Notes: a model not told the origin generated them from the sequence alone. A stretch of DNA of 64,000 nt from Candidatus Eiseniibacteriota bacterium (GCA_036507005.1 DASXQT010000075.1:37178-101177), one strand, 5' to 3'; shown: positions 11,259 to 64,000, numbered from the stretch's first letter. Program-made: numbers and translations.

Positions 11259-11316
11259 TAGAACCCGCATCATGCTACGCGGCGCCGCCATCATTCCTGC
11301 CGAACGCATCCAGTCC

Positions 11317-19385: not shown

Positions 19386-19725
19386 GCAACGCCGCACTCG
19401 TCCGCGCACATCGCAAGGTCCGCCGCGGGATTCGCGCGGTCGCGGGATTGCGGGATGCGATGCCCGTCGGATCGCGCGGAGCGCCCACCCGTCGCGAGGG
19501 GGTCCTGCGACCTCCGTTCCCGGAACGGCTTGGGTTTTTCGGCGCCCCGATCCTGCGTCCCGCACGATCCTCCGGCATGGGCGATGCTGCGTACCGCACC
19601 TCGGCGTTTCTACGCCACCAGTACGGGCCCACACTCGACGCGTTTGACGCCGATCCCTGGGCCCCCGGCACCGACTCAGGAGTGACCGGGAGCGCCCGTT
19701 CTGGAAAACGGACGGATCACGCGAG

Positions 19726-23519
<3,794 letters not shown>

Positions 23520-40816: not shown

Positions 40817-40846
40817 GTTGACCTCTCCGGCTTGAGCCCGTAGGTT
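40817..40846 (+). promoter_or_regulatory. promoter-like GTTGACC-N17-TAGGTT upstream of the GT4 gene
   Basis: Read in the sequence, 112 nt upstream of GTG 40958. Confidence 0.3.
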
Positions 40847-47022: not shown

Positions 47023-47161
47023 GGCGATCTCCGGACACCGGCATCCGTACCGGGCCGTGTATCCCATTAATAGAGTATATCGGCGCGAACGGGAACCGTC
47101 GAGATGCGTTTATTAGGGCTGTCCGCCCTCGGGTTGCATTTTCCGCGGCGCGATTCGGAGT

Positions 47162-47189
47162 GTTGACCCTACTCGGCCGAGGCTTTAAC
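47162..47189 (+). promoter_or_regulatory. promoter-like GTTGACC-N15-TTTAAC upstream of the gmd-like gene
   Basis: Lies in the AT-richer divergent region 47023-47235. The same architecture recurs at 50940-50967. Confidence 0.35.
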
Positions 47190-47235
47190 GTCGCGAACCT
47201 TGTCCACCCACTCGCGCTCTCCCCTGGGGCCTCCC

Positions 47236-48189
47236 ATGCGACGCGTTCTCGTCACGGGCGTCACCGGTTTCGCCGGCAGCCACCTCGTGGACTACATGCT
47301 CACCCGGAACGACTGTCAGATCTTCGGCATCCAGCGCTGGAGATCGCGCACGGAGAACGTTGAGCACTTCCTGGATCGGATCACGATGCTCGAGTGCGAC
47401 TTGCGCGACGCCTCCTCCACGCGCGACACGCTCGAGAAGGTGAAGCCGGACTGGATCTTCCACCTCGCCGCCCAGTCGTTCGTGCCCACCTCGTGGATCG
47501 CGCCCACCGAGTCGCTCACCACCAACGTGCTGTGCCAGGTGAACCTCTTCGAGGCGGTGCGGCGCCTCGGGCTAAAATGCCGGATCCAGCTCGCCTGCTC
47601 GAGCGAGGAGTACGGCCTGGTGCTTCCGGACGAGCTGCCGATCCGGGAGACCAACCCGCTCCGGCCGCTCTCGCCCTACGCGGTGAGCAAGGTCGCGCAG
47701 GACCTCCTCGGCTACCAGTACTGGATGTCGTGGAAGGTGGACAGCGTGCGCACCCGCGGATTCAACCACGAAGGTCCACGCCGCGGGCCGGTGTTCGTGG
47801 CCTCGGACTTCGCCAAGCAGATCGCCGACGCCGAGAAGGGCCGGCGGCCGCCGGTGCTCTCGGTCGGGAACCTGGAGGCGAAGCGCGACTTCACCGACGT
47901 GCGCGACATGGTGCGCGGCTACTGGCTCGCGCTCGAGAAGTGCGAGCCCGGCGAGGTCTACAACCTGTGCCGCGGCCGGTCGTGGAGCATCCAGGAGGTG
48001 CTCGACATGCTGCTCGGCATGACGAAGCTGAAGCTCGAGGTACGCAAGGACCCCGCGCGGCTCAGGCCCAGCGACGTCCCGGTGCTGCTGGGCGATCCTT
48101 CCAAGTTCGCCAAGGCCTCGGGCTGGGAGCCCACCATCCCGTTCGAGCAGACGCTGCGCGACATGCTGGACTACTGGCGCGCGCGCTGA
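47236..48189 (+). CDS. gmd: GDP-mannose 4,6-dehydratase-like NAD-dependent dehydratase
   Basis: TGVTGFAGSHL Rossmann motif, SSEEYGLV, SPYAVSK, FNHEGPRRG (Gmd-type), LLGDPSKFAKASGWEP. Confidence 0.75.
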   Translation: MRRVLVTGVTGFAGSHLVDYMLTRNDCQIFGIQRWRSRTENVEHFLDRITMLECDLRDASSTRDTLEKVKPDWIFHLAAQSFVPTSWIAPTESLTTNVLCQVNLFEAVRRLGLKCRIQLACSSEEYGLVLPDELPIRETNPLRPLSPYAVSKVAQDLLGYQYWMSWKVDSVRTRGFNHEGPRRGPVFVASDFAKQIADAEKGRRPPVLSVGNLEAKRDFTDVRDMVRGYWLALEKCEPGEVYNLCRGRSWSIQEVLDMLLGMTKLKLEVRKDPARLRPSDVPVLLGDPSKFAKASGWEPTIPFEQTLRDMLDYWRAR

Positions 48190-48192
48190 CCC

Positions 48193-49758
48193 GTGACGGA
48201 GCCCGCCCGACGAACCAGCAGCTCCGGGCTCGGCCGTCGACTGGTCACGAACACGTTGCACGCGGCGACCGGCCGCTTCGTGGCGCTTCTGGTCTGGCTC
48301 GTTTTCACGCCGGCCATCCTTCGTTCTCTCGGACCTCAAGCGTTTGGGGTATGGGCCCTCTTCTACGTTCTCACGGGCTATTTCGCCGCTCTCGATTTTG
48401 GCCTCGTGCAGAGCACCTTGAGGTACGTCGCCGCAGCTCGCGAAAAAGGCGCCGACGCCGAGGCGGGGGCCTACGCCACGCTCGGCGTTCTGGGCTACCT
48501 CCTGCTCGCGATCCTGTGGTTCCTGGTGGCCCTCGGCGCCGGAAACGCCGCGATCGCCTGGCTTCGCATTCCGGCGACCGAGGTGCAGGCGGCCCATGTG
48601 GCGGTGTTCGCCGGGGCAGGAGTGTTCGTGCTGGCAGGCGTGGCGAACGTGACGATTGCCGTTCTCCAGGGATATGGACGCTTCGACCTCGCGAACCTGA
48701 TGGTGCTGGCGATGGCGTCTGTGCAAACCGTGGGGTTCCTCCTGGCGCTCCGCCTTCACTCCGGCTTCAATGGTTTCGTGGTGGCCGTCGTCGTCGCGTG
48801 GTCGCTCACCGGACTCCTGGGTCTGGGAATCGTTCCCCTGGCGGCGCCGCGCTTCCGGTGGGCCACACCGATGGCCATTCGAGCGCACGTCCGGGAGATG
48901 TGGCGTTTCGGAGGGCCGGTTCAAATCACGAACTTGCTGGGCGTACTCCACTCACACGCGGACAAGATCCTGCTGTCCCGGTTCGTCGCGCTCGCCTCCA
49001 TCGTTCCCTATGAACTCGGCTCGCGAGTGTCGCTCACGGTCTGCGCGCTGCCGCAACTGATGCTGATGGCCGTGCTACCGGAGGCCTCCGCGATTTTCGT
49101 CGCAGGTGACCGCGACCGCCTCCGCCTGCTCTATGAGCGTGGAAGTCGCCATGTGATGACGGCCGTGGCGGTGACGCTGGCTCCAGTGCTCGGCGCGGCA
49201 GACAGAATCTTCGCCGTGTGGCTGGGCCCGGGGCATGGCGACGCGGCGCTGGTGACGAGAGTCGTGACATCCACGATCTGGTTCACGATGACGACGGGGA
49301 TGGGGACGACGTTGGGACGAGCCATCGCGCGCACCGAACTGGAGACCTGGTATGCCACCGTGACCGTGGCGGTCCACCTGACTCTGAGCTGGCTGCTGCT
49401 GCCGCGACTGGGGCTTCCGGGTGCACTCATCGGGTACGCGGCAGGCGGGGTGTGCGGCGTGGCGCTGTTCTTCATCGTGTTCGCACGGGCACTGGGGTGG
49501 TCGCTGGGCTTCGTGCTCGCGTCGTGCGGCCGACCCCTGGTGGCAACGCTGGGGGGGAGCACCGCCGGCTGGCTCGTGGATCGCCTGCTGCCGGTCTCGG
49601 CGGGGGGGGCACTGGGGTGGCTGCTTCTTTGTCTGTCCGCGGTAGCGGCCTCGGCCACGGCGTTCGCTCTGGTGTTGGCCACCCAATACCTGAGGTGGTC
49701 GGACGTGCGAACGGGGTTCGCGGCCGTCGTGCGGACACTCCGCGTGCAGGCGGGGTAA
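48193..49758 (+). CDS. wzx: MOP-superfamily polysaccharide flippase (Wzx-like)
   Basis: 521 aa with roughly 14 TM helices; polysacc_synt-type topology. Confidence 0.75.
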   Translation: MTEPARRTSSSGLGRRLVTNTLHAATGRFVALLVWLVFTPAILRSLGPQAFGVWALFYVLTGYFAALDFGLVQSTLRYVAAAREKGADAEAGAYATLGVLGYLLLAILWFLVALGAGNAAIAWLRIPATEVQAAHVAVFAGAGVFVLAGVANVTIAVLQGYGRFDLANLMVLAMASVQTVGFLLALRLHSGFNGFVVAVVVAWSLTGLLGLGIVPLAAPRFRWATPMAIRAHVREMWRFGGPVQITNLLGVLHSHADKILLSRFVALASIVPYELGSRVSLTVCALPQLMLMAVLPEASAIFVAGDRDRLRLLYERGSRHVMTAVAVTLAPVLGAADRIFAVWLGPGHGDAALVTRVVTSTIWFTMTTGMGTTLGRAIARTELETWYATVTVAVHLTLSWLLLPRLGLPGALIGYAAGGVCGVALFFIVFARALGWSLGFVLASCGRPLVATLGGSTAGWLVDRLLPVSAGGALGWLLLCLSAVAASATAFALVLATQYLRWSDVRTGFAAVVRTLRVQAG

Positions 49759-49882
49759 TGCGCCCCGGCGATCGAATGCCGGTATCGGGTCCGGGTGACA
49801 GGAGAACATTGGTAACGTGCCGGGACCGAGGAGGAGGTAGGGGGGGTGGGGGACGATCGTTCGAAGCTCTGAGGAGCCGGGG

Positions 49883-50833
49883 ATGATCAGACAGAGGATC
49901 CTCGTCACCGGAGCCAACGGCTTCGTGGGTCCGCACCTCACGCGCGCGCTCGCCGCGCGCGGCGCGCGGGTGCACGGCGCGGCACTGGGGGCGGCGCCGC
50001 CGGGTCTCGCGCTCGACGGCTGGCACGCGGCGGACGTGCGCGCGCCCGAGTCGCTCGCGGCCGCGATCGCGGCCGCGCGGCCCGACGCCATCGTTCACCT
50101 CGCGGGCCAGAGCAGCGCCGCCCTCTCCTTCGAGGACCCGGTCGCCACCTTCCAGGTCAACGCGCTCGGCACCTGGCACCTACTCGAGGCGGTGCGGCGC
50201 GCCGCCCCCCGCGCGCGCGTCCTCGTCGTCGGCACGAGCGAGGCCTACGGCCCGCGGCCGGAGGGAACGCGGGTCGCAGAGGACGCGCCGTTCATGCCGG
50301 TGAGCCCGTACGCGCTCTCCAAGGCCGCGGCCGACGCCCTGGCCGAGGTCGCGCACCGCACGTGGGGGACCGACGTGGTGCGCACTCGCTCGTTCGCACA
50401 CGCCGGGCCGGGGCAGACCACGCGCTTCGCGATCCCGTCGTTCGCGGAGCAGATCGCGTCGATCGAGGCCGGGAAGGCGGACCCGGTGCTGCGGGTGGGC
50501 AACCTGGAGGTGACCCGCGACCTCACCGACGTGCGGGACGTGGCCGAGGCCTACGCGACGCTGATCGAGCGCGGGCGATCGGGCGCGGCCTACAACGTGT
50601 GCCGCGGGGAGGGCGTGCGGCTCCGCGACGTCGCCCAGGCGCTGGCATCGCGGTCGAAGGTCCCGGTGCGGATCGAGGTGGACCCGGCGCGCTTCCGCCC
50701 CGCCGACGTCCCATATCTTGTGGGGGACCCTTCCGCCATCGCGCGCGACTGCGGATGGCGCGCGACCACCCCGCTCGAGCGCACGCTGGACGAGCTGCTC
50801 GACGAGTGGCGCGCGCGGGCGCGGCCCGCGTGA
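49883..50833 (+). CDS. rmd: GDP-6-deoxy-D-mannose reductase-like NAD-dependent epimerase/reductase
   Basis: VTGANGFVGPHL, SPYALSK, FAHAGPGQ, YNVCRGEGVRLRDV. The pattern matches Rmd across its length. Confidence 0.75.
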   Translation: MIRQRILVTGANGFVGPHLTRALAARGARVHGAALGAAPPGLALDGWHAADVRAPESLAAAIAAARPDAIVHLAGQSSAALSFEDPVATFQVNALGTWHLLEAVRRAAPRARVLVVGTSEAYGPRPEGTRVAEDAPFMPVSPYALSKAAADALAEVAHRTWGTDVVRTRSFAHAGPGQTTRFAIPSFAEQIASIEAGKADPVLRVGNLEVTRDLTDVRDVAEAYATLIERGRSGAAYNVCRGEGVRLRDVAQALASRSKVPVRIEVDPARFRPADVPYLVGDPSAIARDCGWRATTPLERTLDELLDEWRARARPA

Positions 50834-50939
50834 AGCGCGGGACGCGCGACGGCACCGGACCGACGCGCCGCGTCGCCCGCGCCGCGCATCGGGGCTTCAC
50901 CGGAGGCGCGCTTGCGCGTTTCGCCTGCGCTCGGTTGCG

Positions 50940-50967
50940 GTTGACCGCTCCGTGACGAGCCTCTAAC
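50940..50967 (+). promoter_or_regulatory. promoter-like GTTGACC-N15-TCTAAC upstream of ugd
   Basis: Read in the sequence, 90 nt upstream of TTG 51057. Confidence 0.35.
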
Positions 50968-51056
50968 CTGACTCGCCCGTCTGCTCCACCTCCCTGCGGG
51001 ACCGCGTGCGCTTCGCGGGACACGCCGCACGACCTCGGCGCGAAAGGACCTTCTCG

Positions 51057-52436
51057 TTGGACAAGATCACCGTGGTGGGCACCGGCTACGTGGGGCTCGT
51101 GACCGGCGCCTGCCTCGCCGATTTCGGCAGTCGCGTGGTGTGCGCGGACAGCGACGCCGCGAAGATCGAGCGCGCGAAAGCCCTCGAGCTGCCCTTCTTC
51201 GAGCCCGGCCTGCCGGAGCTCGTGCGCCGCAACCTGAGCGAAGGCCGGCTCGCCTTCTCGAGCGACGTCGAGGGGGCGATCCGGGGCGCGGCGGTGGTGT
51301 TCATCACGGTCGGCACCCCGCGTCACACCGACGGGAGCGCCGACACCAGCGCCATCTTCGAGGTCGCGAGGATCGTGGCGCGGAACCTCGGCGCCCGCAA
51401 GCTCGTGGTCCAGAAGAGCACCGCGCCGGTGGGCACAGCGCGCAAGCTGATGGAGTTCCTGGGCAAGCACGCGCCGCGCGGCGCCGACTTCGAGGTCGCC
51501 TCGAACCCCGAGTTCCTGCGCGAGGGCGCGGCGATCGAGACCTTCATGCGCCCCGACCGCGTGGTCATCGGGGCCGAGACCCGGCGCGGCGCCCGCATGC
51601 TCAAGAAGCTCTACGATCCGCTGTTCCTGATCGAGACCCCGCTGGTCGTGACCTCGCTCGAGACCGCGGAGCTGATCAAGTACGCGGCCAACTGCTTCCT
51701 CGCGACCAAGATCTCCTTCATCAACGAGATCGCCAACCTGTGCGAGGCCCAGGGCGCCGACGTCCAGGTGGTGGCGAAGGGCCTGGGGATGGACCGGCGC
51801 ATCGGCAACAAGTTCCTGCACGCCGGCCCCGGCTTCGGCGGATCGTGCTTCCCCAAGGACACGCACGCGCTGGTGGCGATGGCGCGCGGGCTGGGCGTGA
51901 AGGCGGGGATCGTGGAGGCGACGATTGCCGCGAACGAGCGGCAGATGGACCTGATGGTGGAGAAGATCCGCGCCGCGGTCGGGGGCCGGCGCGGCGCGCG
52001 CGCCGCCGTCCTCGGCCTCTCCTTCAAGCCCAACACCGACGACCTTAGGGAGGCTCCGGCGCTCCACATCGTCGCCGGGCTCAAGCGCCGCGGCTTCGCG
52101 GTCTCGGCCTTCGATCCGGTGGCCGCGGAGCCCGCGAGCCGCCTGCCGGTGATGAGCGGGGTGAGAATCGCCGCCGACGCCTACGACGCCGCGCGCGGGG
52201 CGGACGCGGTCGCGATCGTGACCGAGTGGAACGAGTTCCGGAACCTGAACCTGGGCGAGCTCAAGCGCATCATGCGCAAGCCGGTGCTGTGCGATCTCCG
52301 GAACATCTACGACCGCGAGGAGGTCGAGGCCGCCGGTTTCACCCACGTGGGCGTCGGGCGCGGCCGCATCGCGAAGGCGCGCGCGGCCCGTCCCCGGATG
52401 CGGGTCGCCGCCGCGCGGCGCAGGAGGCCAGCGTGA
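51057..52436 (+). CDS. ugd: UDP-glucose 6-dehydrogenase
   Basis: TTG start in frame. ITVVGTGYVGLVTGACLA NAD-binding motif and catalytic GFGGSCFPKD. Confidence 0.85.
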   Translation: MDKITVVGTGYVGLVTGACLADFGSRVVCADSDAAKIERAKALELPFFEPGLPELVRRNLSEGRLAFSSDVEGAIRGAAVVFITVGTPRHTDGSADTSAIFEVARIVARNLGARKLVVQKSTAPVGTARKLMEFLGKHAPRGADFEVASNPEFLREGAAIETFMRPDRVVIGAETRRGARMLKKLYDPLFLIETPLVVTSLETAELIKYAANCFLATKISFINEIANLCEAQGADVQVVAKGLGMDRRIGNKFLHAGPGFGGSCFPKDTHALVAMARGLGVKAGIVEATIAANERQMDLMVEKIRAAVGGRRGARAAVLGLSFKPNTDDLREAPALHIVAGLKRRGFAVSAFDPVAAEPASRLPVMSGVRIAADAYDAARGADAVAIVTEWNEFRNLNLGELKRIMRKPVLCDLRNIYDREEVEAAGFTHVGVGRGRIAKARAARPRMRVAAARRRRPA

Positions 52437-52888
52437 TCGAAGGCGTCCGGATCAAGCGGCTCAAGGTCATTCCCGACGAGCGCGGCTACCTGATGGAGAT
52501 GATGCGCGACGACGACGAGTTCTTCCAGAAGTTCGGCCAGGTCTACCTCTCGGTGGTCTACCCGGGCGTGGTCAAGGGCTGGCACTACCACAGGAAGCAG
52601 ACCGACCACTTCGTCTTCGTGAAGGGCATGGCCAAGGTCGTGCTCTTCGACAACCGCGAGGGCAGCCGGACCAAGGGCGAGATCAACGAGTTCTTCATGG
52701 GCGAGGCCAACCCGATCCTGCTCGTGATCCCGCCGCTCGTCCTCCACGGCATGAAGGGCGTGGGGGTGGAGCCGGCGTACCTGGTCAACACGCCGACCGA
52801 GCACTACGTGTACGACCAGCCCGACGAGTTCCGCATCCCGCCCCACAGCCCCGAGATCCCCTACGACTGGAGCCGCAAGGATGGCTGA
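52433..52888 (+). CDS. RmlC-like cupin (dTDP-4-dehydrorhamnose 3,5-epimerase / sugar ketoisomerase family)
   Basis: GTGA overlap with the ugd stop. 151 aa. GWHYHRKQTDHFVFVKG cupin motif. Confidence 0.7.
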   Translation: MIEGVRIKRLKVIPDERGYLMEMMRDDDEFFQKFGQVYLSVVYPGVVKGWHYHRKQTDHFVFVKGMAKVVLFDNREGSRTKGEINEFFMGEANPILLVIPPLVLHGMKGVGVEPAYLVNTPTEHYVYDQPDEFRIPPHSPEIPYDWSRKDG

Positions 52889-56673: not shown

Positions 56674-58280
56674 GCGGGCCGCCGGGTCACCCTGCCGGGA
56701 CCGCCTCGCGCGGTGACGGGACGCGGGGCATTCCGCAACTCGATCGGCTGATCGCGCGAAACACCGCGTTCACGCTGCTCGGCCGCTTCGCCTACGTGGC
56801 GGGATGGATCCTGATCGCGCCCTTCATGGTCGCCGGCCTGGGAGCCGAGCGCTTCGGCCTGTGGTCCCTGCTCACCGTCGTCTCCGGGGTCTACCTCACC
56901 TTCGATTTTGGACTCCAGAGCGCGCTCACCAAGTTCGTCGCCGAGTTCCACGCCACCGGGGATCGCGCCTCGCTGCGGGGCATCTTCACGCTCGGGATCC
57001 TGCTCTACGGCGGGCTGAGCCTGGCCTTCTTCCTCGCGATCGCGGCGTTGCGCGAGCCCCTGCTTGGTTTCTTCCGGGTCGCCCCCGGACTCCACGCGGA
57101 GGCCGCCTGGGCCCTGGTCGGCGCCGCCGCCGTCTACGGCGTAATGAACTTCTACATGCTCCTGTCCTCCGTGCTGAGCGGTCTCCAGCGCCTCGACCTC
57201 TGGAACCGAATCGCCATCGCCACGACGCTGCTGCAGATACTCGGCGTGGCGATCGTGATCTCCCTGGGCGGAGGACTGCGCTGGCTGGTGGTGAACACCG
57301 GGATCTCCATGGCCCTCGCGGCGCTGTGGTGCCGCTGGAGCGTGAGGCGCCTTGCCCCGGAGATCCGCTTCGAGCTGCCTGTGGCAGTGCCGGGCCTGAT
57401 GCGGCGGCTGACGCGCTACGGCGCGGCGCTGCAGATCATCAACCTGGGGGGCCTGGTTCAGTTCCAGCTCGACAAGGTGCTGTTCGGACGGTTCGTGTCG
57501 CTCACCGCTTCGGGCGACTACGAGCTGGGCTACCGTGTGGCATCGGCCTTGTGGTCGCTGCCGGCGCTGCTGCTGCCGGCGCTGCTGCCGGCCGTGGCGC
57601 ACCTGGATGCGTCGGCCGACCACGCCCGCATCACGCGGCTCTACCTGCGTGCGAGCCGCTACGTGATCGGGGTGGCCTTCCCGCTCGCGACCGGGATCAT
57701 CGTGCTGTCCCCGGTGCTGTTCACCGCCTGGCTCGGCCCCGGGCATCCGGATGCGGCGCGCGCCGCGATCGCCCTCGGCGCGTTGATGGGGGTGAACATC
57801 CTGACCGGTGTCGGGGGGAGCGTGGCCCGCGGCGTCGGGAGGCCGGGTCTCGAGGCCGAATACCACGTGCTCGCGATCCTCCTGCACTTCGCGCTCAGCC
57901 TCTCGCTGATCCCTCGTCTCGGCTTCACGGGCGGGCTGTGGGCGCTCTTCCTGTCCGGAGCGGTGGGCTCGATCTACTTCCTGGTGCGCTTCCACCTGAG
58001 TCAGAGGATTCCCCTCGGGCGCTACGTGCTCGAGGTGCTGGCGCGGCCGGCCGCCGCCGCCGCGCTTGGCGGGCTCGCGGGACACTCGGTCTCCCTTTGG
58101 GCCGTGTGGAGTCTCGTGCCCGAGGGGCGAGCGCAGGGGATCGCCCGTCTAGTCGCGGGAGGCGTCGCGTTGATCGGGGTCGCGGCGGCCGTGCTGATGG
58201 CCAGCCGCTACGTGTCGCTGTCCGAGGTGCGGGCGATCGTGGGTCCGGCCGGCGGGCGCCCGCGGGAAGCCGCGGGATGA
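56670..58280 (+). CDS. second MOP-superfamily flippase (Wzx-like)
   Basis: ATGA overlap with the wzz stop (alternative start 56628). Roughly 14 TM helices. A paralogue of the gene at 48193. Confidence 0.7.
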   Translation: MSGPPGHPAGTASRGDGTRGIPQLDRLIARNTAFTLLGRFAYVAGWILIAPFMVAGLGAERFGLWSLLTVVSGVYLTFDFGLQSALTKFVAEFHATGDRASLRGIFTLGILLYGGLSLAFFLAIAALREPLLGFFRVAPGLHAEAAWALVGAAAVYGVMNFYMLLSSVLSGLQRLDLWNRIAIATTLLQILGVAIVISLGGGLRWLVVNTGISMALAALWCRWSVRRLAPEIRFELPVAVPGLMRRLTRYGAALQIINLGGLVQFQLDKVLFGRFVSLTASGDYELGYRVASALWSLPALLLPALLPAVAHLDASADHARITRLYLRASRYVIGVAFPLATGIIVLSPVLFTAWLGPGHPDAARAAIALGALMGVNILTGVGGSVARGVGRPGLEAEYHVLAILLHFALSLSLIPRLGFTGGLWALFLSGAVGSIYFLVRFHLSQRIPLGRYVLEVLARPAAAAALGGLAGHSVSLWAVWSLVPEGRAQGIARLVAGGVALIGVAAAVLMASRYVSLSEVRAIVGPAGGRPREAAG

Positions 58281-58284
58281 TGGC

Positions 58285-59463
58285 ATGGGCCGACCCGTCG
58301 TGATGGTGGACGCGCTCGCCGGCCTGTTCCCCGGCGGGGGGATCGGCCGATACGTGCGCGACCTCGCCGACGCGCTGACCGACATGCCCGATGCGCCGCC
58401 GGTCTGCTTCGTCTATCCGCGGAACCTGCGGGTCCGTGCCCGGGCGCGGTTCCGACCCGAGCATCTTCACGAGCTCCCCTGGTCCTGGCTCCAGCTCCGT
58501 CTCGTCCTCGTCGCCGGCCGCGCCGTGGGCGCCCGATACGACTGGGCCTACGGCGAGCCCGCCGTGATGCACTCTCCGCTCGGCTACGGCCCGAGCTTCC
58601 GGCGGACCCGTCTCATCAACCACGTTCACGACCTGACGACCCTCGAGCATCCCGAATGGCACCCGCGCAGGACGAGCTGGTTCTACCGCGTCATGCTGCC
58701 CGCGGCGGTGCGGGACGCGGACGTCGTCCTCACCCACTCCCGGTACATGGGGAGGCGGGTGGTCGAGGCGCTGGGAGGCGATCCGGCCCGCACGGTCACC
58801 ATCCCGCCGCCGCTCAGCCGGGGCTTCGAGCCCGTCCCGGCGGAGGAGGCGCGGACTCACGTGCGGCGGCGCTTCGGCATCGGGGGAGACTTCATCCTGC
58901 ACGTCGGCACGATCGAGCCCCGCAAGAACCACGTGAGGCTCATGGGCGCCTTCGAGCGCCTGCGGCGCGCAGGCTTCCCCGGACCGCTGGTGCTGGTGGG
59001 ACAGGACGGCTGGCTCGTGCGCCCGATCCTGCGCCGATTGGAGACATCGCCCGAGTCGGCGGCGGTGCAACGAATCCGCGACGCGGATGACCGCGATCTG
59101 GTGGCGCTCTACGGAGCATGCACCCTGTGCGCCTTTCCCTCACTGGAAGAAGGCTTCGGTATGCCGCTGCTCGAATCGATGGCCTGCGGTGCCGCGTGCG
59201 TGACCAGCCAGCACGAAGCCCTCACCGAGCTCGGTGCCGGGTGCTCGCTGGCGGTTCCGGCCACCGACGAGGCGGCCCTGGCAGACGCCCTTCTCCGGCT
59301 CTGGCGCGATCCCGATCTGCGGCGCGAGGTCGCCCGGGCCGGGCCCGCGCGCGCCGCGGCCTACCGCTTCGAGCGCTGGGCGGAGCGGATCTTCGCGCTC
59401 TATCGCGGCCAGCTCGTGGCCGCCGGCGTGCAGGGAGACGCGATCCCGGGTGAAGCTCGATGA
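58285..59463 (+). CDS. GT4 family glycosyltransferase
   Basis: 392 aa. ILHVGTIEPRKNHVRLMGAFERL ... AFPSLEEGFGMPLLESMACGAACV. Confidence 0.8.
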   Translation: MGRPVVMVDALAGLFPGGGIGRYVRDLADALTDMPDAPPVCFVYPRNLRVRARARFRPEHLHELPWSWLQLRLVLVAGRAVGARYDWAYGEPAVMHSPLGYGPSFRRTRLINHVHDLTTLEHPEWHPRRTSWFYRVMLPAAVRDADVVLTHSRYMGRRVVEALGGDPARTVTIPPPLSRGFEPVPAEEARTHVRRRFGIGGDFILHVGTIEPRKNHVRLMGAFERLRRAGFPGPLVLVGQDGWLVRPILRRLETSPESAAVQRIRDADDRDLVALYGACTLCAFPSLEEGFGMPLLESMACGAACVTSQHEALTELGAGCSLAVPATDEAALADALLRLWRDPDLRREVARAGPARAAAYRFERWAERIFALYRGQLVAAGVQGDAIPGEAR

Positions 59464-60623
59464 CCCCGCCGCCCGCGTCCTCCGCCGGGCCCGGGCTGCT
59501 TCTGGACGTCTTCCCCGGCCTCTTCCCGGGCGGCGGAATCGGTCGCTATGTGCGGGACCTCGCTGACCTGCTGCTCACGCGGGCGGACGCGCCCCCGGCG
59601 CGCTTCGTCTATCCCCGCTTCGTCGATGGGATCCAGGTGCCCTACCCGGCGGAGCGCTTGAGGCCGCTTCCGCTCGGGTGGCGTCGCATGCGCGTGCTTC
59701 TGGTGGCGAGCGCGCTCTGTGGCCTGCGGCCCGATCGCCTCTACGGGTGCCCGGCCCTGGTGCACTCGCCCATGGGATATGGCCCCTTGTTCTCGAAGGC
59801 CAAGCTCCTGATCACCATTCACGACCTCAACGCGATCCACCACCCCGAATGGCATCCGCTCCGCACCCGGTTCCTCGTGCAGGCGACGATGCCCTCCGCG
59901 GCGCGGCACGCCGACCTCGTCGTGTGCGACTCCGAGTTCGTGCGCGGCCAGGTGATGGAGGCCTTCGGCGTGGACCCGGCACGCATCACCACGGTCCCGC
60001 TCGCCGTCGGGCCAGCGTTCCGGCGACTGCCCCCGGGGGCGGCGCGGGACCACATGGCGCGGCGCTTCGGCATCGAAGGCGAGTTCTTCCTCCACGTGGG
60101 CACGCTCGAGCCCCGCAAGAATCACGTTGGTCTCGTTGCCGCATTCGAGCGCGTGCGGCGGGCCGGGTTCCCCGGGCCGCTGGTGCTGGTCGGCCACGAC
60201 GGGTGGCTCATGAACCCGATCGCGGCGCGGATCGAGTCCTCACCGGACTCCGGCGCGATCGTTCGGATCCGCGACGCCGACGAGGATGATCTGGTCGCCC
60301 TCTACTCCGCCTGCACCGCGTTCGCGTTCCCTTCGCTCGATGAGGGCTTCGGCCTCCCGCCGCTCGAGGCGATGGCGTGCGGCGCCCCCTGCATCTCGAG
60401 CAACCGTTCCTCCCTTCCGGAGGTGGTGGGGGATGCGGCCGTGTCCCTCGATCCCGGCGACGTGGAGGCGTGGGCCGAGACCCTGCGCGGGCTGTGGCGG
60501 GACGCCGATCGCCGCGCCACCATGGCCGCCGCGTCGGTCGCGCGCGCCCAACGATTCACGCGCGACCGCTGGATCGCACGGATGCTCGAGATCTACCGGG
60601 TGCTGCTCGCCGGGGCGTCCTGA
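59460..60623 (+). CDS. GT4 family glycosyltransferase (tandem paralogue)
   Basis: ATGA overlap. FLHVGTLEPRKNHVGLVAAFERV ... AFPSLDEGFGLPPLEAMACGAPCI. Confidence 0.8.
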   Translation: MTPPPASSAGPGLLLDVFPGLFPGGGIGRYVRDLADLLLTRADAPPARFVYPRFVDGIQVPYPAERLRPLPLGWRRMRVLLVASALCGLRPDRLYGCPALVHSPMGYGPLFSKAKLLITIHDLNAIHHPEWHPLRTRFLVQATMPSAARHADLVVCDSEFVRGQVMEAFGVDPARITTVPLAVGPAFRRLPPGAARDHMARRFGIEGEFFLHVGTLEPRKNHVGLVAAFERVRRAGFPGPLVLVGHDGWLMNPIAARIESSPDSGAIVRIRDADEDDLVALYSACTAFAFPSLDEGFGLPPLEAMACGAPCISSNRSSLPEVVGDAAVSLDPGDVEAWAETLRGLWRDADRRATMAAASVARAQRFTRDRWIARMLEIYRVLLAGAS

Positions 60624-61981
60624 GCCGGAGCCCGGGACCGCGCGCCTCGGGACATCGAGTAGTAGCCGAGGTATCCGCCCATGATCCAGAAGAACACGAA
60701 CTGGTACTGCTCACCCTGGAAGGTTGGCTCGACCAGGGTGTGCAGTTGACCGAGACAGAAGCTCACCATCAGGGCCCGTCCAACGCCCTGCCAATCCGGG
60801 TCGGACGCCAGCGCTGAGAGCCGGCGCCAGAGAAGGACGAGCACGCTGAGCCAGCCCGCCACCCCGAGCAGGCCGAGCTCGGAGGAAAGGGCGAGCCAGT
60901 AGTTGTGCGGATCCCGGTCGAAGAGGCGGTCCGGATACGTCCAGCCCTGATTCAGGCCCATTCCCCAGGGAAAGTGATCGACGGTGCGCTGCCATGCCAC
61001 CCGGAAGTACCAGATCCTCACTGCGATGCTGGCCAGCTCACGGGAACTGGTGAAGCGCGACAGGAAGCTCTGACCCAGGGGGCTGATCACGAATCCGAAC
61101 AGCGCGGCCGTGATCAGGAGCGCCCCGATCAGCTTGCGCGAGCGGTTGGCGAACGCCTGCACCGCGGTTCCGAAAACAAAGAGGAGAGCCGCGGCGCGTG
61201 AAGCGATGAGTCCCTGCATGAGCGCGATGAGCACGAGCGCGAGCCACGACGGCAGCCGCAGCCAACGCTGGCGCGAGTGCATCGCGGCTTCGAGCAGCAG
61301 GGGAGAAAGCAGCAGCAGCAGAGTGGCGATGTAGTTGGCCGTGCCCCAACCGAGATCCGTTGCAGCGGCCCGGTGAAAGGCGGTCTGCTCCACGTTCCAG
61401 CCGGTCGACAGCCACTTGCCGAGGGCCGCCAGCGACAAGGCCAGGGCCCCGAGGAGCAGGCCCACCTCGAACGTCGATCTCGGAACCACGCGCGCCAGGC
61501 GGTTCGCGACCCAGAAGGCGGCGAAGCCCTCCAGCAGCCGGCGGACTCCATGCACGTACCACGCGAAGTCGAAGCACCAGAACCCGGTGAACACCGCCCA
61601 GGCGATGAACCCCAGGTTGGCCGCCTCGATCCACTCCAGGCGGACCATCCACGCTGCACGCCGACGGATTCCCTGAAGACCGAGGATCAGCGCGAGCGCC
61701 GCGAAGGAGAACTCGAAGGGGAAGAAGATCGAGACCACCGTCCCGAGCGGGAGCAGGGCCGGGGTCACGACCACCAACACCTCCGGCGCGGCGTACAGCA
61801 GGGCAGCCAGCACCGCGGTCGCGAGCACGGCGCTGATCGCCAGGCCCGGGATCGAGAGGACCCCGACGCCGAAGATGGCGTAGACCAGCGAGACCACGGC
61901 GATCACGACCGCCGCGTCGGGCACATGGCGCTCGAGGACCGCGGGGACGCGCGCTAGCGCGATGGGCGCCCGGCTGCTCAC
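60593..61981 (-). CDS. O-antigen ligase/polymerase-like membrane protein (Wzy/WaaL family)
   Basis: 462 aa, minus strand, about 11 TM helices with a large periplasmic loop. The only antisense gene in the cluster; its 3' end overlaps the GT4 stop by about 30 nt. Confidence 0.7.
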   Translation of the reverse strand: MSSRAPIALARVPAVLERHVPDAAVVIAVVSLVYAIFGVGVLSIPGLAISAVLATAVLAALLYAAPEVLVVVTPALLPLGTVVSIFFPFEFSFAALALILGLQGIRRRAAWMVRLEWIEAANLGFIAWAVFTGFWCFDFAWYVHGVRRLLEGFAAFWVANRLARVVPRSTFEVGLLLGALALSLAALGKWLSTGWNVEQTAFHRAAATDLGWGTANYIATLLLLLSPLLLEAAMHSRQRWLRLPSWLALVLIALMQGLIASRAAALLFVFGTAVQAFANRSRKLIGALLITAALFGFVISPLGQSFLSRFTSSRELASIAVRIWYFRVAWQRTVDHFPWGMGLNQGWTYPDRLFDRDPHNYWLALSSELGLLGVAGWLSVLVLLWRRLSALASDPDWQGVGRALMVSFCLGQLHTLVEPTFQGEQYQFVFFWIMGGYLGYYSMSRGARSRAPAQDAPASSTR

Positions 61982-62067
61982 TGCGTGGGCCGGGAGACGG
62001 GCAGCGGGAGGCGAATCACGCGGAAAGGTTAGCGCGCGTTCCCCGGGCTCGCAATCCCACCGGGCGC

Positions 62068-62991
62068 TTGGTGCGTTTGGACAGCCGTCCTCCCGGTGCC
62101 TATCATGCCCGCACGCATGTCGCTGCCTCGTGTCACCGCCTGCGAGAGGCCCTCAACCCCGATTTCGGAGGAAAATTGAAGCCTCAGACCGTCTCCGAGG
62201 CGCAGGAGCGGGAGCGTCAATTCTGGCGAACGACGCGGGACGAGGGGCCCCAGTCCAACACGGTCGACCTCCTGGCCCACAAGCTGAGCGAAGCACGCTC
62301 ATTCCTCGAATGCATGAGGCTGTTTCGCGACGTCTTCGAGCGCGCCCGGGACATCCTGGAGCTCGGCGGCGGGGAGGGCTGGGCCGCGTGCATCCTCAAG
62401 CGCGAGCTCCCAGGGTCTCGCAGGATCGTCAGCTCCGACATCAGCGCTGAGGCGGTCGCGGCACTGCCCCGATGGGAGCGAATCTTCGAGGTGTCTCTCG
62501 ACCGGGCCTTCCCATGCCTGAGTTACGAGATCCCCCTCGACAACGAGACCCTGGATCTTGTCTTCACCTTTCAGGCGGCGCACCACTTTCTGGCACACCG
62601 CAGGACCTTCGCCGAGATCTGGAGAGTGCTCCGCCCCGGGGGCACGTGCCTCTATCTCCACGAGCCCACGTGCCGCGCATTCTTCTATCCCCTCTACCGC
62701 GCCCGTGCGACCCGGGTCCGCGACTCGGCCCCCGAGGACGTCCTGGACTTCCCCAAGCTCATCCGCGTCGCCCGCCGACAGGGCTTCGAGGCCACCTATC
62801 GCTTCGACCTTTCCCTCACGAATCGCTCCCCGGTAGCGACTCTCTACTACATGGCTCAGCGAGCCGTGCCTTTGATCCGCCACGTCCTGCCTGGCACGAA
62901 GCACCTGCTCTTCCGGAAGCACGCGTCGGATCGCTCGGCGACGGTCGCGAAGCGGTGGTTCCCCGCCGCCGGAGGCGGCCCTCCGGCGTGA
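62068..62991 (+). CDS. class I SAM-dependent methyltransferase
   Basis: ILELGGGEGWAACIL (motif I) and LRPGGTCLY (post-I). TTG/GTG start at 62068/62071. Confidence 0.7.
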   Translation: MVRLDSRPPGAYHARTHVAASCHRLREALNPDFGGKLKPQTVSEAQERERQFWRTTRDEGPQSNTVDLLAHKLSEARSFLECMRLFRDVFERARDILELGGGEGWAACILKRELPGSRRIVSSDISAEAVAALPRWERIFEVSLDRAFPCLSYEIPLDNETLDLVFTFQAAHHFLAHRRTFAEIWRVLRPGGTCLYLHEPTCRAFFYPLYRARATRVRDSAPEDVLDFPKLIRVARRQGFEATYRFDLSLTNRSPVATLYYMAQRAVPLIRHVLPGTKHLLFRKHASDRSATVAKRWFPAAGGGPPA

Positions 62992-63001
62992 TCGCACCCG
63001 C

Positions 63002-64000
63002 GTGACGATCGCTTACGACCTGCGCTATGCCTGCGACCACTTCGTCGGCATCGCCACCTACGCCCACGCCGTGCTCGACGCCCTGCTCACGCTGCCGGGA
63101 GACGAGCGCTACGTCGTGCTCTGGGATCCGCGCCAGCGCCAGTCGCGCTTCGAGCTGTCGGGTCTGCGCTCCCACCCGCGCGTGGCCTGGGTCGAGAAGC
63201 CTTTCGCGCCGCTCGGGCTGCTCGCCATGGCGCGGGTCGGCGCCTGGCTCCGCGCGCTCGGGCCCGCGGCCTACTTCAGCCCGTTTCACCTGCTCCCGTT
63301 CCGGCCGGCGTGCCCCTGCATCGTCACCATTCACGACGTGCGTCCCCTACGGTACATCTCCGAGCTGTCTCCATGGCGGCTTGCGCCGTACCGCTGGGGC
63401 CTGGTCCGCGCGACGCGCGCGCGGGTCATCGTGACCGTGAGCGAGTTCAGCCGGCAGGAGGTGCTGGCGATGCTCCCCGCGGTTCCCGATCGGGTGCGCA
63501 CCGTGCACCCCGGCGTGCACCAGGGGCTGCGGCGGGCCGAGCCCCGCAGGCCCGACGGAATGCCCTCCCGTGAGTTCGGTCTGGTGGTCGGGGACAATCG
63601 CCCGCACAAGAACCTCTCGGTTCTGGCGCGGGCGTGGTCCCGGCTCGGAGATCCGCCGCCGCTCGAGTTGGTCGCCGTGGGTCCCACCCACGGCCGCTAT
63701 CCAGGGCTAACAGAGCTCGCTCGCCGCTCGGGGGCCCGCGCAGTTCACCTGGGACGGCGGACCGATGCGGAGCTGGCCTGGCTCTACGCCAACGCCACAA
63801 TCATGCTGTTCCCAAGCCTCTACGAGGGATTCGGCTCACCCCTGGTCGAAGCCCTCCAGCAGGGGGTCCCCGCGGTCGTCTCGGACATCCCCGCGTTCCG
63901 GGAGATCGCGGACGGCGCGGCGCGATTCGTGCCGCCCCATTCGCCGGAAGCATGGGCTGCCGAGGTGCGGCGCCTGCTCGCGGACGGGGACGAGCGCGTG
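63002..64000 (+). CDS. GT4 family glycosyltransferase (3' end outside window)
   Basis: GTG 63002. Frame is open to the window end. ...NLSVLARAW...IMLFPSLYEGFGSPLVEALQQGVPAVVSD is the GT4 C-terminal signature. Confidence 0.7.
   Translation, partial: MTIAYDLRYACDHFVGIATYAHAVLDALLTLPGDERYVVLWDPRQRQSRFELSGLRSHPRVAWVEKPFAPLGLLAMARVGAWLRALGPAAYFSPFHLLPFRPACPCIVTIHDVRPLRYISELSPWRLAPYRWGLVRATRARVIVTVSEFSRQEVLAMLPAVPDRVRTVHPGVHQGLRRAEPRRPDGMPSREFGLVVGDNRPHKNLSVLARAWSRLGDPPPLELVAVGPTHGRYPGLTELARRSGARAVHLGRRTDAELAWLYANATIMLFPSLYEGFGSPLVEALQQGVPAVVSDIPAFREIADGAARFVPPHSPEAWAAEVRRLLADGDERV

What the first reader, a model, noticed from the sequence alone, without database searches (positions are those of the whole stretch)
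47023..64000. Surface-polysaccharide cluster with GDP-D-rhamnose (gmd plus rmd), UDP-glucuronate and dTDP-sugar branches, two Wzx flippases, Wza/Wzz without a Wzc kinase, tandem GT4 paralogues and an antisense Wzy
The gene content implies a Wzx/Wzy-dependent heteropolymer containing 6-deoxyhexose and uronic acid. Several features are unusual. Two MOP flippases lie in one cluster (48193 and 56670). A Wzz-type co-polymerase lacks the tyrosine-kinase domain, and no Wzc/Wzb is nearby. The polymerase/ligase is the only antisense gene and overlaps the preceding GT4 by about 30 nt. A SAM methyltransferase sits between Wzy and a third GT4. rmlA and rmlD are missing from the window. Two operon starts (upstream of gmd and of ugd) share the architecture GTTGACC-N15-T(T/C)TAAC, with a CGAG(G/C)C box before the -10-like hexamer (47162-47189 and 50940-50967). 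A third GTTGACC-N17-TAGGTT precedes the GT4 at 40958. This suggests a common promoter type for the cluster.
Basis: partly seen in the sequence, partly recalled or inferred. Interest (0 to 1): 0.5.

Follow-up and report, generated by a model that had tools for sequence, protein, structure and literature searches.

The report
Conserved Eisenbacteria surface-polysaccharide gene cluster
This is an ordinary Wzx/Wzy-type surface-polysaccharide gene cluster from an uncultured Candidatus Eisenbacteria bacterium; its "unusual" features are either shared by the cluster's relatives across that phylum or already known in other bacteria, and its promoters are the organism's general housekeeping type.

Summary
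The cluster runs at least 6.6 kb past the window, where it encodes a WcaJ-type priming transferase, more GTs, a TylF-type methyltransferase, an Fcl-like SDR and a Wzy_C+GT4 fusion. The contig is from Ca. Eisenbacteria.

The core order is gmd-like, rmd-like, ugd, cupin, rmlB, wza, wzz. It recurs in dozens of Eisenbacteria, Latescibacterota and Krumholzibacteriota MAGs. In two relatives with longer views, wzx2, GT4, antisense wzy, MT and GT4 follow as well.

Corrections:
- "gmd" is a non-canonical short dehydratase. It scores below the TIGR01472 cutoff and is closer to Rmd and DmhA than to E. coli Gmd, but it carries dehydratase motifs.
- The two Wzx are same-family paralogues (31% identity), not MurJ. 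wzx1 is an insert found in only some relatives.
- The kinase-less 368-aa PCP is a large family. All 120 listed homologues lack a kinase, and one fully bounded relative cluster has none.
- The promoter motif is really TTGACC-N17-TAAC(G/C)T. It is conserved at orthologous positions but also precedes unrelated genes, so it is the general sigma-70-like promoter. The CGAG box is not conserved.

Verdict: new member of a known kind, low interest.

The parts
47163..47191 (+). Sigma-70-like promoter of the gmd-like gene: TTGACC (47163-47168), 17-nt spacer, TAACGT (47186-47191). Predicted TSS about 47198, 5' UTR about 38 nt.
   Evidence: A TTGAC[CG]-N17/18-TAnnnT sits 67-123 nt upstream of the orthologous start codon in 36 of 48 related loci.
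47236..48189 (+). sdr1: short (317 aa) Gmd/DmhA-like NDP-sugar 4,6-dehydratase, proposed GDP-mannose 4,6-dehydratase.
   Evidence: PF16363 264 bits. TIGR01472 161 bits, below the 415 cutoff. PDB matches: Rmd 2PK3 290 bits (44% identity), DmhA 7US5 205, E. coli Gmd 148. Dehydratase-type motifs SSE, YAVSK, NHEGPRRG and GIQRW (motif list from PMC3584063). 65-86% identical across many phyla.
48256..49758 (+). wzx1: PST-family (Polysacc_synt) flippase. An accessory insert between sdr1 and sdr2.
   Evidence: PF01943. 31% identical to wzx2 over the full length. Present in this slot in 11 of the related loci, absent in the others. GC3 is 0.81 against 0.94 in both flanking genes.
49883..50833 (+). sdr2: Rmd-like GDP-4-keto-6-deoxy-D-mannose 4-reductase.
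   Evidence: Best PDB matches are the two characterised Rmds, 2PK3 (230 bits, 39% identity) and 6X3B (182 bits). AHAGPGQ motif as in Rmd NHIGPGQ; no RR loop.
50941..50969 (+). Sigma-70-like promoter of the ugd operon: TTGACC, 17-nt spacer, TAACCT. Predicted TSS about 50976, 5' UTR about 81 nt, with RBS CGAAAGGA before the TTG start.
   Evidence: Present 96-155 nt upstream of ugd in 15 of 15 closest Eisenbacteria loci. The alignment shows only the -35, the -10 and the RBS conserved.
51057..52436 (+). ugd: UDP-glucose 6-dehydrogenase.
   Evidence: Three UDPG_MGDP_dh domains. TIGR03026 442 bits, above the 190 cutoff. Best equivalog is TuaD at 501 bits, below its 700-bit cutoff.
52433..52888 (+). 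151-aa RmlC-like cupin (dTDP-sugar epimerase or isomerase family), unusually conserved.
   Evidence: PF00908. TIGR01221 39 bits, below the 156 cutoff. Best PDB hit 3EJK, 84 bits. 72-88% identical in relatives.
52881..53933 (+). rmlB: dTDP-glucose 4,6-dehydratase.
   Evidence: TIGR01181 423 bits, above the 365 cutoff.
53945..55570 (+). wza: OPX outer-membrane polysaccharide export protein (541 aa). It has an SPI-type signal peptide and a conserved hydrophobic C-terminal helix.
   Evidence: Poly_export plus SLBB domains. EpsE and PEP-CTERM export models as best NCBIfam hits. C-terminus conserved in L165 and L166.
55567..56673 (+). wzz: 368-aa polysaccharide co-polymerase with two TM helices, a 12-aa cytoplasmic tail and no kinase domain.
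   Evidence: Wzz plus GNVR. TM helices at 35-53 and 338-356. All 120 listed homologues are 326-377 aa and have no kinase domain.
56670..58280 (+). wzx2: the conserved flippase of the locus.
   Evidence: PF13440, PF01943. Orthologues 48-55% identical at the same position in L165 and L166.
58285..59463 (+). gt4a: GT4 glycosyltransferase, orthologue of the single GT4 found at this position in relatives.
   Evidence: 67% and 57% identical to the L165 and L166 GT4.
59460..60623 (+). gt4b: lineage-specific tandem duplicate of gt4a.
   Evidence: 51% identical to gt4a. 52-53% identical to the single-copy orthologues.
60593..61981 (-). wzy: Wzy_C-family polymerase (462 aa, at least 8 TM helices), convergent with gt4b with a 31-nt 3' overlap.
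   Evidence: PF04932 26.6 bits, below the 31.7 gathering score. Antisense orthologues 49-53% identical in L165 and L166; the L166 one overlaps its GT4 by 76 nt. TM count.
62078..62106 (+). Promoter-like site TGGACA-17-TATCAT upstream of the methyltransferase operon.
   Evidence: 10 of 12 matches. Conservation not tested.
62176..62991 (+). Class I SAM methyltransferase (271 aa).
   Evidence: Methyltransf_11/25. 70% identical orthologue in L166.
63002..64000 (+). gt4c: third GT4, cut by the window end (real end at 64102).
   Evidence: 52-56% identical orthologues in L165 and L166.

Best explanation
This is the 5' two-thirds of a conserved Wzx/Wzy-dependent secreted or capsular polysaccharide locus of an uncultured Ca. 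Eisenbacteria bacterium.

Proposed mechanism:
1. A WcaJ-type phosphoglycosyltransferase, just beyond the window, primes undecaprenyl phosphate with a hexose-1-phosphate.
2. Several GT4 enzymes and one GT2 build a repeat unit. The donors are made by a GDP branch, a UDP branch and a dTDP branch.
   - GDP branch: a short Gmd-like 4,6-dehydratase, an Rmd-like 4-reductase and an Fcl-like enzyme downstream, giving D-rhamnose or 6-deoxytalose and an L-fucose-like sugar.
   - UDP branch: Ugd, giving glucuronate.
   - dTDP branch: RmlB plus a divergent RmlC-like cupin. RmlA and the final reductase are encoded elsewhere.
3. Two methyltransferases probably O-methylate sugars.
4. Wzx2 flips the unit and the antisense-encoded Wzy polymerises it.
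5. A short PCP with no cytoplasmic domain and a Wza-type OPX take the polymer across the envelope without a locus-encoded tyrosine kinase.

Transcription starts at ordinary sigma-70-like promoters (TTGACC-N17-TAnnnT) upstream of the gmd-like gene and of ugd. The eight genes from ugd to gt4b are translationally coupled and form one operon.

Shown: gene families, synteny, promoter conservation, absence of a kinase. Inferred: sugar identities, operon structure, transcription start sites, kinase independence.
For: - Family assignments.
- Cluster continuation with a WcaJ-type PGT (TIGR03023 467 bits, above the 411 cutoff), TylF-MT, GT4, an Fcl-like SDR (300 bits), GT2 and a Wzy_C+GT4 fusion.
- Organism and synteny: 584 relatives of sdr1, the best being Eisenbacteria MAGs. 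The core order sdr1, sdr2, ugd, cupin, rmlB, wza, wzz is conserved. Relatives L165 and L166 continue with wzx, GT4, antisense wzy, MT and GT4; L166 then has a WcaJ-type PGT and L165 a WecA-type PGT.
- Dehydratase and reductase motif split between sdr1 and sdr2: with motif definitions from PMC3584063.
- Operon: gaps or overlaps of -8 to +11 nt from ugd to gt4b.
- Promoters: 4 matches against 0.07 expected. Conserved at orthologous positions in 36 of 48 (sdr1) and 15 of 15 (ugd) loci.
- Kinase absence.
Against: - sdr1 fails the curated Gmd equivalog threshold. It scores higher against a GDP-heptose dehydratase (7US5) and against Rmd than against canonical Gmd, so its substrate and even its reaction are inferred.
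- Wzy_C is below the Pfam gathering score here.
- No rmlA, rmlD or manC is visible, so none of the three sugar branches is complete in the sequence seen.
- Two flippases and two Wzy_C proteins could mean two glycans rather than one.
- The rest of the genome could encode a stand-alone kinase or pseudokinase. A pseudokinase lacking a Walker A motif would escape the regex test, although every gene between 47 and 70.6 kb already has another family assignment.
- No transcript data.
Confidence: 0.75

Rival explanations
1. Two glycan systems share one superlocus. wzx1, together with the downstream 803-aa Wzy_C+GT4 fusion acting as a ligase or second polymerase, serves a second glycoconjugate such as an O-antigen-like chain or protein glycan. 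wzx2, wzy, wza and wzz make the exported polymer.
For: Two flippases share only 31% identity. There are two Wzy_C proteins. wzx1 forms its own orthogroup, 39-49% identical in 11 MAGs, always next to sdr1 or sdr2, whereas relatives L165 and L166 manage with wzx2 alone.
Against: Only one priming transferase is seen. wzx1 is absent from many relatives that keep sdr1 and sdr2. The fusion protein's N-terminal part lies beyond the sequence available, so its role was not examined.
Confidence: 0.25
2. sdr1 and sdr2 are a DmhA/DmhB-like pair acting on GDP-D-glycero-D-manno-heptose. They make a 6-deoxyheptose rather than D-rhamnose.
For: sdr1 matches the C. jejuni GDP-heptose 4,6-dehydratase 7US5 (205 bits) better than any canonical Gmd (148 bits or less). 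It shares DmhA's GxxRW variant of the GXXRR motif.
Against: No gmhA, hddA, gmhB or hddC-type domains (SIS, GHMP kinase, nucleotidyltransferase) appear in this cluster or in the fully bounded relative cluster L165. An Fcl-like enzyme downstream fits a GDP-4-keto-6-deoxymannose pool. sdr2's best matches are true Rmds.
Confidence: 0.12
3. The shared GTTGACC...TAAC motif with a CGAG(G/C)C box marks a cluster-specific promoter or regulon.
For: Three instances lie upstream of glycan genes. The pattern is strongly over-represented.
Against: The same -35/-10 pattern precedes phoH, a DUF4440 gene and an unknown gene elsewhere in the window. The hexamers match the general sigma-70 consensus with a 17-nt spacer. 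The CGAG box is not conserved in 15 orthologous promoters.
Confidence: 0.07
4. There is no GDP branch. sdr1 and sdr2 are 4-reductases or epimerases that finish the dTDP-4-keto-6-deoxyhexose made by RmlB and the cupin, replacing the missing RmlD.
For: Both SDRs match a reductase (2PK3) best. rmlD is absent while sdr1, sdr2, cupin and rmlB always travel together.
Against: sdr1 carries the Glu and the Arg-Arg (NHEGPRRG) motifs that the literature ties to 4,6-dehydration (PMC3584063). The sdr1 plus sdr2-like pair also occurs in other phyla without rmlB or the cupin nearby (for example L053, L064, L072, L081).
Confidence: 0.08

Closest known systems
E. coli group 1 capsule / colanic acid Wzx/Wzy-dependent systems (Wza-Wzb-Wzc, WcaJ, Gmd, Fcl, Ugd)
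   Same: OPX (Wza) plus PCP, a Wzx flippase, a Wzy polymerase, a WcaJ-type priming transferase, GDP-6-deoxyhexose and UDP-GlcA precursor genes, and a GT block.
   Different: There is no BY-kinase domain or Wzb phosphatase. The PCP is 368 aa with a 12-aa cytoplasmic tail. Wza has an SPI-type rather than a lipoprotein signal peptide. The Gmd is non-canonical.
Phosphorylation-independent PCP systems: M. xanthus EpsV/EcpK (PMC12004946) and P. aeruginosa PslD/PslE (PMC13434223); also Xanthomonas GumB/GumC (from my own knowledge, not checked here)
   Same: An OPX works with a PCP that has no active tyrosine kinase.
   Different: EpsV has a stand-alone pseudokinase encoded in the cluster, and PslE keeps a fused kinase-like domain. 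Here no kinase-like gene is visible in 70.6 kb, nor in the fully bounded relative cluster L165.
GDP-D-rhamnose pathway Gmd plus Rmd (P. aeruginosa A-band, A. thermoaerophilus S-layer glycan; PDB 1RPN, 2PK3, 6X3B)
   Same: An adjacent dehydratase-like and reductase-like SDR pair. sdr2 is 39% identical to A. thermoaerophilus Rmd and has its GPGQ motif.
   Different: sdr1 is 317 aa, is closer to Rmd (44%) and DmhA than to Gmd, has GIQRW instead of GXXRR, and fails TIGR01472. Whether the product is D-rhamnose or 6-deoxy-D-talose cannot be told from sequence.
C. jejuni DmhA GDP-D-glycero-D-manno-heptose 4,6-dehydratase (PDB 7US5)
   Same: It shares the GxxRW motif, SSE and the PRR(G/S) motif with sdr1. 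It is the best-scoring solved dehydratase.
   Different: No GDP-heptose synthesis genes are seen in the locus.
K-locus / O-antigen locus architecture of Enterobacteria (from my own knowledge)
   Same: A conserved export and precursor module at a fixed chromosomal site (after the OPT transporter gene, as in L166), with accessory inserts and GT changes between strains.
   Different: The GT, Wzy and MT part is more conserved here: 49-70% identical orthologues across three genomes.

Membership tests
Wzx/Wzy-dependent polysaccharide pathway | Polyprenyl-phosphate phosphoglycosyltransferase | tested here: met
   TIGR03023 WcaJ_sugtrans 467 bits, above the 411 cutoff, at window-equivalent 64846-66246, just beyond the window.
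Wzx/Wzy-dependent polysaccharide pathway | Wzx (PST/MOP) flippase | tested here: met
   PF01943 and PF13440 above gathering for both copies. No MurJ/MVIN hit.
Wzx/Wzy-dependent polysaccharide pathway | Wzy polymerase | tested here: inconclusive
   PF04932 26.6 bits, below the 31.7 gathering score. At least 8 TM helices. The L165 orthologue has an unmarked Wzy_C hit. Polymerase and ligase cannot be told apart by sequence.
Wzx/Wzy-dependent polysaccharide pathway | OPX plus PCP export pair | tested here: met
   Poly_export plus SLBB; Wzz plus GNVR.
PCP-2a (Wzc) | C-terminal cytoplasmic BY-kinase domain with a Tyr-rich tail | tested here: not met
   The protein ends 12 residues after TM2. There is no kinase Pfam domain in it or in any of the 120 listed homologues.
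PCP-2b | Stand-alone BY-kinase partner and a C-terminal cytoplasmic activating extension of the PCP | tested here: not met
   No Walker-A ORF except PhoH in 70.6 kb. None in 13 related loci or in the bounded cluster L165. The tail is only 12 aa. A partner elsewhere in the genome cannot be excluded.
PCP-1 (Wzz) | Two TM helices, a periplasmic helical domain, no kinase; works in O-antigen/ECA pathways without an OPX | tested here: inconclusive
   The architecture fits. However, the gene is translationally coupled to wza, and its best NCBIfam hits are PEP-CTERM, EpsF and Wzc periplasmic domains.
GDP-mannose 4,6-dehydratase (Gmd) | Curated equivalog score (TIGR01472) | tested here: not met
   161 bits against a 415 cutoff.
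GDP-mannose 4,6-dehydratase (Gmd) | GMD motifs listed in PMC3584063: GXXGXXG, GXXRR/RR loop, S/T plus YXXXK, catalytic Glu, Arg190-equivalent | tested here: inconclusive
   GVTGFAG, SSE, YAVSK and NHEGPRRG are present. GXXRR is replaced by GIQRW, as in DmhA, with a shorter loop.
GDP-mannose 4,6-dehydratase (Gmd) | Enzyme activity on GDP-mannose | not testable with these tools
   Needs a recombinant enzyme assay.
[quoted passage not shown] | Closest similarity to characterised Rmds and a reductase-type NH.GPGQ motif without an RR loop | tested here: met
   2PK3 230 bits, 6X3B 182 bits. AHAGPGQ motif. The stereochemistry of the product is not testable.
dTDP-L-rhamnose pathway (RmlABCD) | RmlB | tested here: met
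   TIGR01181 423 bits, above the 365 cutoff.
dTDP-L-rhamnose pathway (RmlABCD) | RmlC | tested here: not met
   TIGR01221 39 bits, below the 156 cutoff. The nearest structure is 3EJK, an uncharacterised 'dTDP sugar isomerase'.
dTDP-L-rhamnose pathway (RmlABCD) | RmlA and RmlD in the locus | tested here: not met
   No nucleotidyltransferase or RmlD equivalog in 70.6 kb or in L165/L166.
Sigma-70-type housekeeping promoter | -35 TTGACa and -10 TAnnnT with a 17 +/- 1 nt spacer, upstream of genes | tested here: met
   All 6 window matches are intergenic and co-oriented with the downstream gene.
Sigma-70-type housekeeping promoter | Evolutionary conservation of the hexamers while the spacer and UTR diverge | tested here: met
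Sigma-70-type housekeeping promoter | Mapped transcription start | not testable with these tools
   No transcript data available.

The most novel reading that the evidence does not exclude
In Ca. Eisenbacteria and neighbouring FCB candidate phyla, a Wza-type OPX is driven by a Wzz-sized co-polymerase that has no cytoplasmic domain at all and no kinase or pseudokinase partner. This would be a third mode of OPX/PCP coupling, independent of both phosphorylation and a kinase-like scaffold, and fixed phylum-wide. Alongside it, sdr1 would represent an uncharacterised, widely distributed clade of GDP-sugar 4,6-dehydratases that branches nearer to Rmd than to Gmd.
Probability: 0.25. Interest if true: 0.45.

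Novelty: new member of a known kind. Interest (0 to 1): 0.2.

Why it matters
This gives a first gene-level description of the surface-polysaccharide locus of an uncultured soil phylum, Ca. Eisenbacteria. It also gives a phylogenetically footprinted promoter consensus for that phylum (TTGAC[CG]-N17/18-TAnnnT, with a GAAAGGA ribosome-binding site). That is useful for annotation and for designing expression constructs. It does not change how Wzx/Wzy pathways are understood. The kinase-less short PCP family and the Rmd-like dehydratase clade are modest leads for biochemists working on PCP regulation and 6-deoxyhexose synthesis.

Tried and rejected
1. Extending the contig past the window. The look-up of encoding contigs reached +6.6 kb only. 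A metagenome scan with the Wzy_C+GT4 fragment did not return the source contig. The look-up with the methyltransferase returned only short Logan contigs. The 3' boundary of the cluster is therefore unknown.
2. Rfam scan of the whole window: no RNA family, so no riboswitch or leader in the 5' UTRs.
3. MurJ-like identity of the second flippase: rejected.
4. UDP-glucuronate decarboxylase or epimerase as the identity of the SDR after ugd: rejected, it passes the RmlB equivalog.
5. CGAG(G/C)C box as a regulatory element: rejected, it is not conserved.
6. Low GC3 of wza and wzz as a sign of foreign origin. This was an artefact of my crude frame plot; the true GC3 is 0.91.
7. King et al. 2009 (PMC4381037) could not be read. 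The GMD motif definitions were taken from PMC3584063 instead.
8. Literature search for Eisenbacteria polysaccharide loci: nothing specific found.

Full report
**Source and organism**

The window is about 70% G+C. It is part of a 195-kb JGI metagenome contig, Ga0376049_0000037. The gmd-like protein has 584 confirmed relatives among GTDB species genomes. The best matches (77-86% identity) are almost all Candidatus Eisenbacteria MAGs, followed by Latescibacterota and Krumholzibacteriota. Positions 1-47000 of the window carry housekeeping genes and a few secreted proteins with T9SS-type C-terminal domains.

**Checking the observation**

| Gene | Coordinates | Note |
|---|---|---|
| gmd-like SDR (sdr1) | 47236-48189 | |
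| wzx1 | 48256-49758 | |
| rmd-like SDR (sdr2) | 49883-50833 | |
| ugd | 51057-52436 | |
| RmlC-like cupin | 52433-52888 | 151 aa |
| rmlB | 52881-53933 | passes its equivalog, 423 bits vs 365 cutoff |
| wza | 53945-55570 | |
| wzz | 55567-56673 | |
| wzx2 | 56670-58280 | |
| gt4a | 58285-59463 | |
| gt4b | 59460-60623 | 51% identical to gt4a |
| wzy | 60593-61981, minus strand | 31-nt convergent overlap with gt4b |
| SAM methyltransferase | 62176-62991 | |
| gt4c | from 63002 | cut by the window end |

From ugd to gt4b the eight genes are separated by -8 to +11 nt. This indicates one translationally coupled operon.

**Beyond the window**

The contig continues with these genes:
- a TylF-type methyltransferase;
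- a WcaJ-type undecaprenyl-phosphate glucose phosphotransferase (467 bits, above the 411 cutoff);
- a GT4;
- an antisense Fcl-like SDR (300 bits, below its 500 cutoff), which overlaps that GT4 by 26 nt;
- a GT2;
- an antisense 803-aa Wzy_C+GT4 fusion.

The cluster is therefore cut by the window. The priming enzyme exists, and wzy is not the only antisense gene. I could not get further than +6.6 kb.

**The GDP branch**

The first SDR is not a canonical Gmd. It scores 161 bits against the 415-bit TIGR01472 cutoff. Its best solved relative is the A. thermoaerophilus reductase Rmd (2PK3, 290 bits, 44% identity). Next come the C. jejuni GDP-heptose 4,6-dehydratase DmhA (7US5, 205 bits) and E. coli Gmd (148 bits).

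It nevertheless carries most of the motifs that PMC3584063 lists for GMDs:
- GVTGFAG;
- an RR-loop-like segment (GIQRWRSR, the GxxRW variant also seen in DmhA);
- Ser-Ser-Glu with the dehydratase Glu;
- YAVSK;
- NHEGPRRG, which contains the Arg said to orient the substrate for dehydration.

The second SDR lacks the RR loop. It has AHAGPGQ, like the NHIGPGQ of both characterised Rmds, which are also its best matches.

The motif split, the adjacency of the two genes and the Fcl-like consumer downstream make "Gmd-like dehydratase plus Rmd" the best reading. Two points remain inferred: the substrate (mannose or heptose) and the product stereochemistry (rhamnose or 6-deoxytalose).

**The dTDP and UDP branches**

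- Ugd is solid.
- RmlB is solid.
- The cupin is only a weak RmlC relative (39 bits against a 156 cutoff; best structure 3EJK).
- rmlA and rmlD are absent from the 70.6 kb seen and from two related clusters.

**Comparative architecture**

A tblastn synteny map of 80 related loci shows a conserved order: sdr1, sdr2, ugd, cupin, rmlB, wza, wzz. It holds in Eisenbacteria, and in large part in Latescibacterota and Krumholzibacteriota.

Two relatives with longer views (L165, L166) continue with:
- wzx (48-55% identical to wzx2);
- a single GT4 (57-67% identical to gt4a, 52-53% to gt4b);
- an antisense wzy (49-53%; in L166 it overlaps the GT4 by 76 nt);
- methyltransferases;
- a GT4 orthologous to gt4c;
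- in L166, the same PGT (69%).

L165 is bounded by housekeeping genes. It contains no kinase, no rmlA and no rmlD.

So the antisense wzy, the kinase-less PCP and the missing rml genes are the norm for this locus, not peculiarities of this window. Two things are lineage-specific here:
- gt4b is a tandem duplicate.
- wzx1 is an insert between sdr1 and sdr2. It occupies that slot in 11 of the related loci. L165 has a methyltransferase there and L166 has nothing. Its GC3 is 0.81, against 0.94 in both flanking genes.

**The two flippases**

They align over their full length at 31% identity (E = 9e-48). Both hit the PST families and neither hits MurJ. wzx2 is the conserved flippase of the locus and wzx1 is accessory. 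Together with the second Wzy_C protein, wzx1 leaves open a second glycan. I treat that as a rival reading at about 0.25.

**The co-polymerase**

Wzz has TM helices at residues 35-53 and 338-356 and ends 12 residues later.
- No ORF with a Walker A motif other than PhoH exists in window 1-64000 plus 6.6 kb.
- None exists in 13 related loci.
- All 120 listed homologues (57-100% identity) are 326-377 aa, with at most the Wzz and GNVR domains (one lists GNVR alone) and no kinase domain.

Kinase-independent PCPs working with OPX proteins are already documented: EpsV with the pseudokinase EcpK (PMC12004946) and PslE with an inactive fused domain (PMC13434223). This is therefore a variant within a known theme. 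A partner encoded elsewhere in the genome cannot be excluded.

Wza has an SPI-type signal peptide. Its hydrophobic C-terminal helix is conserved in the orthologues.

**Promoters**

The two motif instances exist as described. The better register is:
- TTGACC-N17-TAACGT at 47163-47191;
- TTGACC-N17-TAACCT at 50941-50969;
- TTGACC-N17-TAGGTT at 40818-40846.

TTGAC-N18-TANNNT occurs 4 times in the window against 0.07 expected. With a variable gap (N16-20 after TTGAC) it occurs 6 times against 0.39 expected. All six matches are intergenic and co-oriented with the next gene. Three of them precede non-glycan genes: phoH, a DUF4440 gene and an unknown gene.

Phylogenetic footprinting supports real promoters:
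- 36 of 48 sdr1-orthologous loci carry the pattern 67-123 nt upstream of the start. The chance expectation is below 0.001 per locus, extrapolated.
- 15 of 15 closest ugd loci carry it 96-155 nt upstream.
- In the ugd alignment only the -35, the -10 (CTAACCT) and the RBS CGAAAGGA are conserved. The CGAG(G/C)C box is not.

These are genuine promoters of the general sigma-70 type, not a cluster-specific class. Predicted transcription starts are near 47198 and 50976.

**Verdict**

This is a conserved, conventional Wzx/Wzy-dependent polysaccharide locus of an uncultured phylum: a new member of a known kind, of low interest. Two minor leads remain: the short kinase-less PCP family and the Rmd-like dehydratase clade.

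Noticed in passing
window 52433-52888: The 151-aa RmlC-like cupin is far more conserved than its neighbours. It is 80-88% identical in the close Eisenbacteria relatives (those with sdr1 at 78% identity or more) and 72-76% in Latescibacterota and Krumholzibacteriota, where the flanking ugd and rmlB are only about 50%. Its best solved relative is the uncharacterised 3EJK 'dTDP sugar isomerase'. Its reaction is unknown.
   Followed up: partly
window 19648-22734 (+), 42282-44762 (+), 44797-46968 (-): Three large secreted proteins carry T9SS-type C-terminal domains (FlgD_ig or Por_Secre_tail). One is an arylsulfotransferase directly upstream of, and divergent from, the polysaccharide cluster. An ASST homologue (42% identity) sits at the same place in L004.
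   Followed up: no
window 7141-7169 (+), 25748-25718 (-), 40763-40734 (-): Further TTGAC-N16-20-TANNNT promoter-like sites lie upstream of phoH, a DUF4440 gene and an unknown 448-aa gene. Together with the cluster promoters they give a working promoter consensus for this Eisenbacteria genome.
   Followed up: partly
window 48256-49758: wzx1 has a GC3 of 0.81 while both flanking genes have 0.94. The slot between sdr1 and sdr2 holds wzx1 in some MAGs, a Methyltransf_9 gene in L165, and nothing in L166. It looks like an insertion hotspot.
   Followed up: partly
L002 16819-18877 (window-equivalent 66278-68336): A second convergent gene pair has overlapping 3' ends: GT4 and the antisense Fcl-like SDR overlap by 26 nt. 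This mirrors the 31-nt overlap of gt4b and wzy. L166 has a 76-nt GT4/wzy overlap.
   Followed up: no
L002 20005-21164 (window-equivalent 69464-70623 and beyond): An antisense 803-aa protein fuses an N-terminal Wzy_C (O-antigen ligase/polymerase) domain to a C-terminal GT4. Homologues of the GT4 half (43-76% identity) are common in soil and sediment metagenomes. Its role is unknown.
   Followed up: partly
window 11035-11793: An ORF with an ORF6N (KilA-N-like) domain lies next to a TonB C-terminal domain gene. It may be a remnant of a mobile element.
   Followed up: no
window 38055-39179 (+) and 39245-40591 (-): Two ORFs of 374 and 448 aa have no Pfam family. They lie between the OPT transporter gene and the upstream GT4 (40958-42121).
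   Followed up: no
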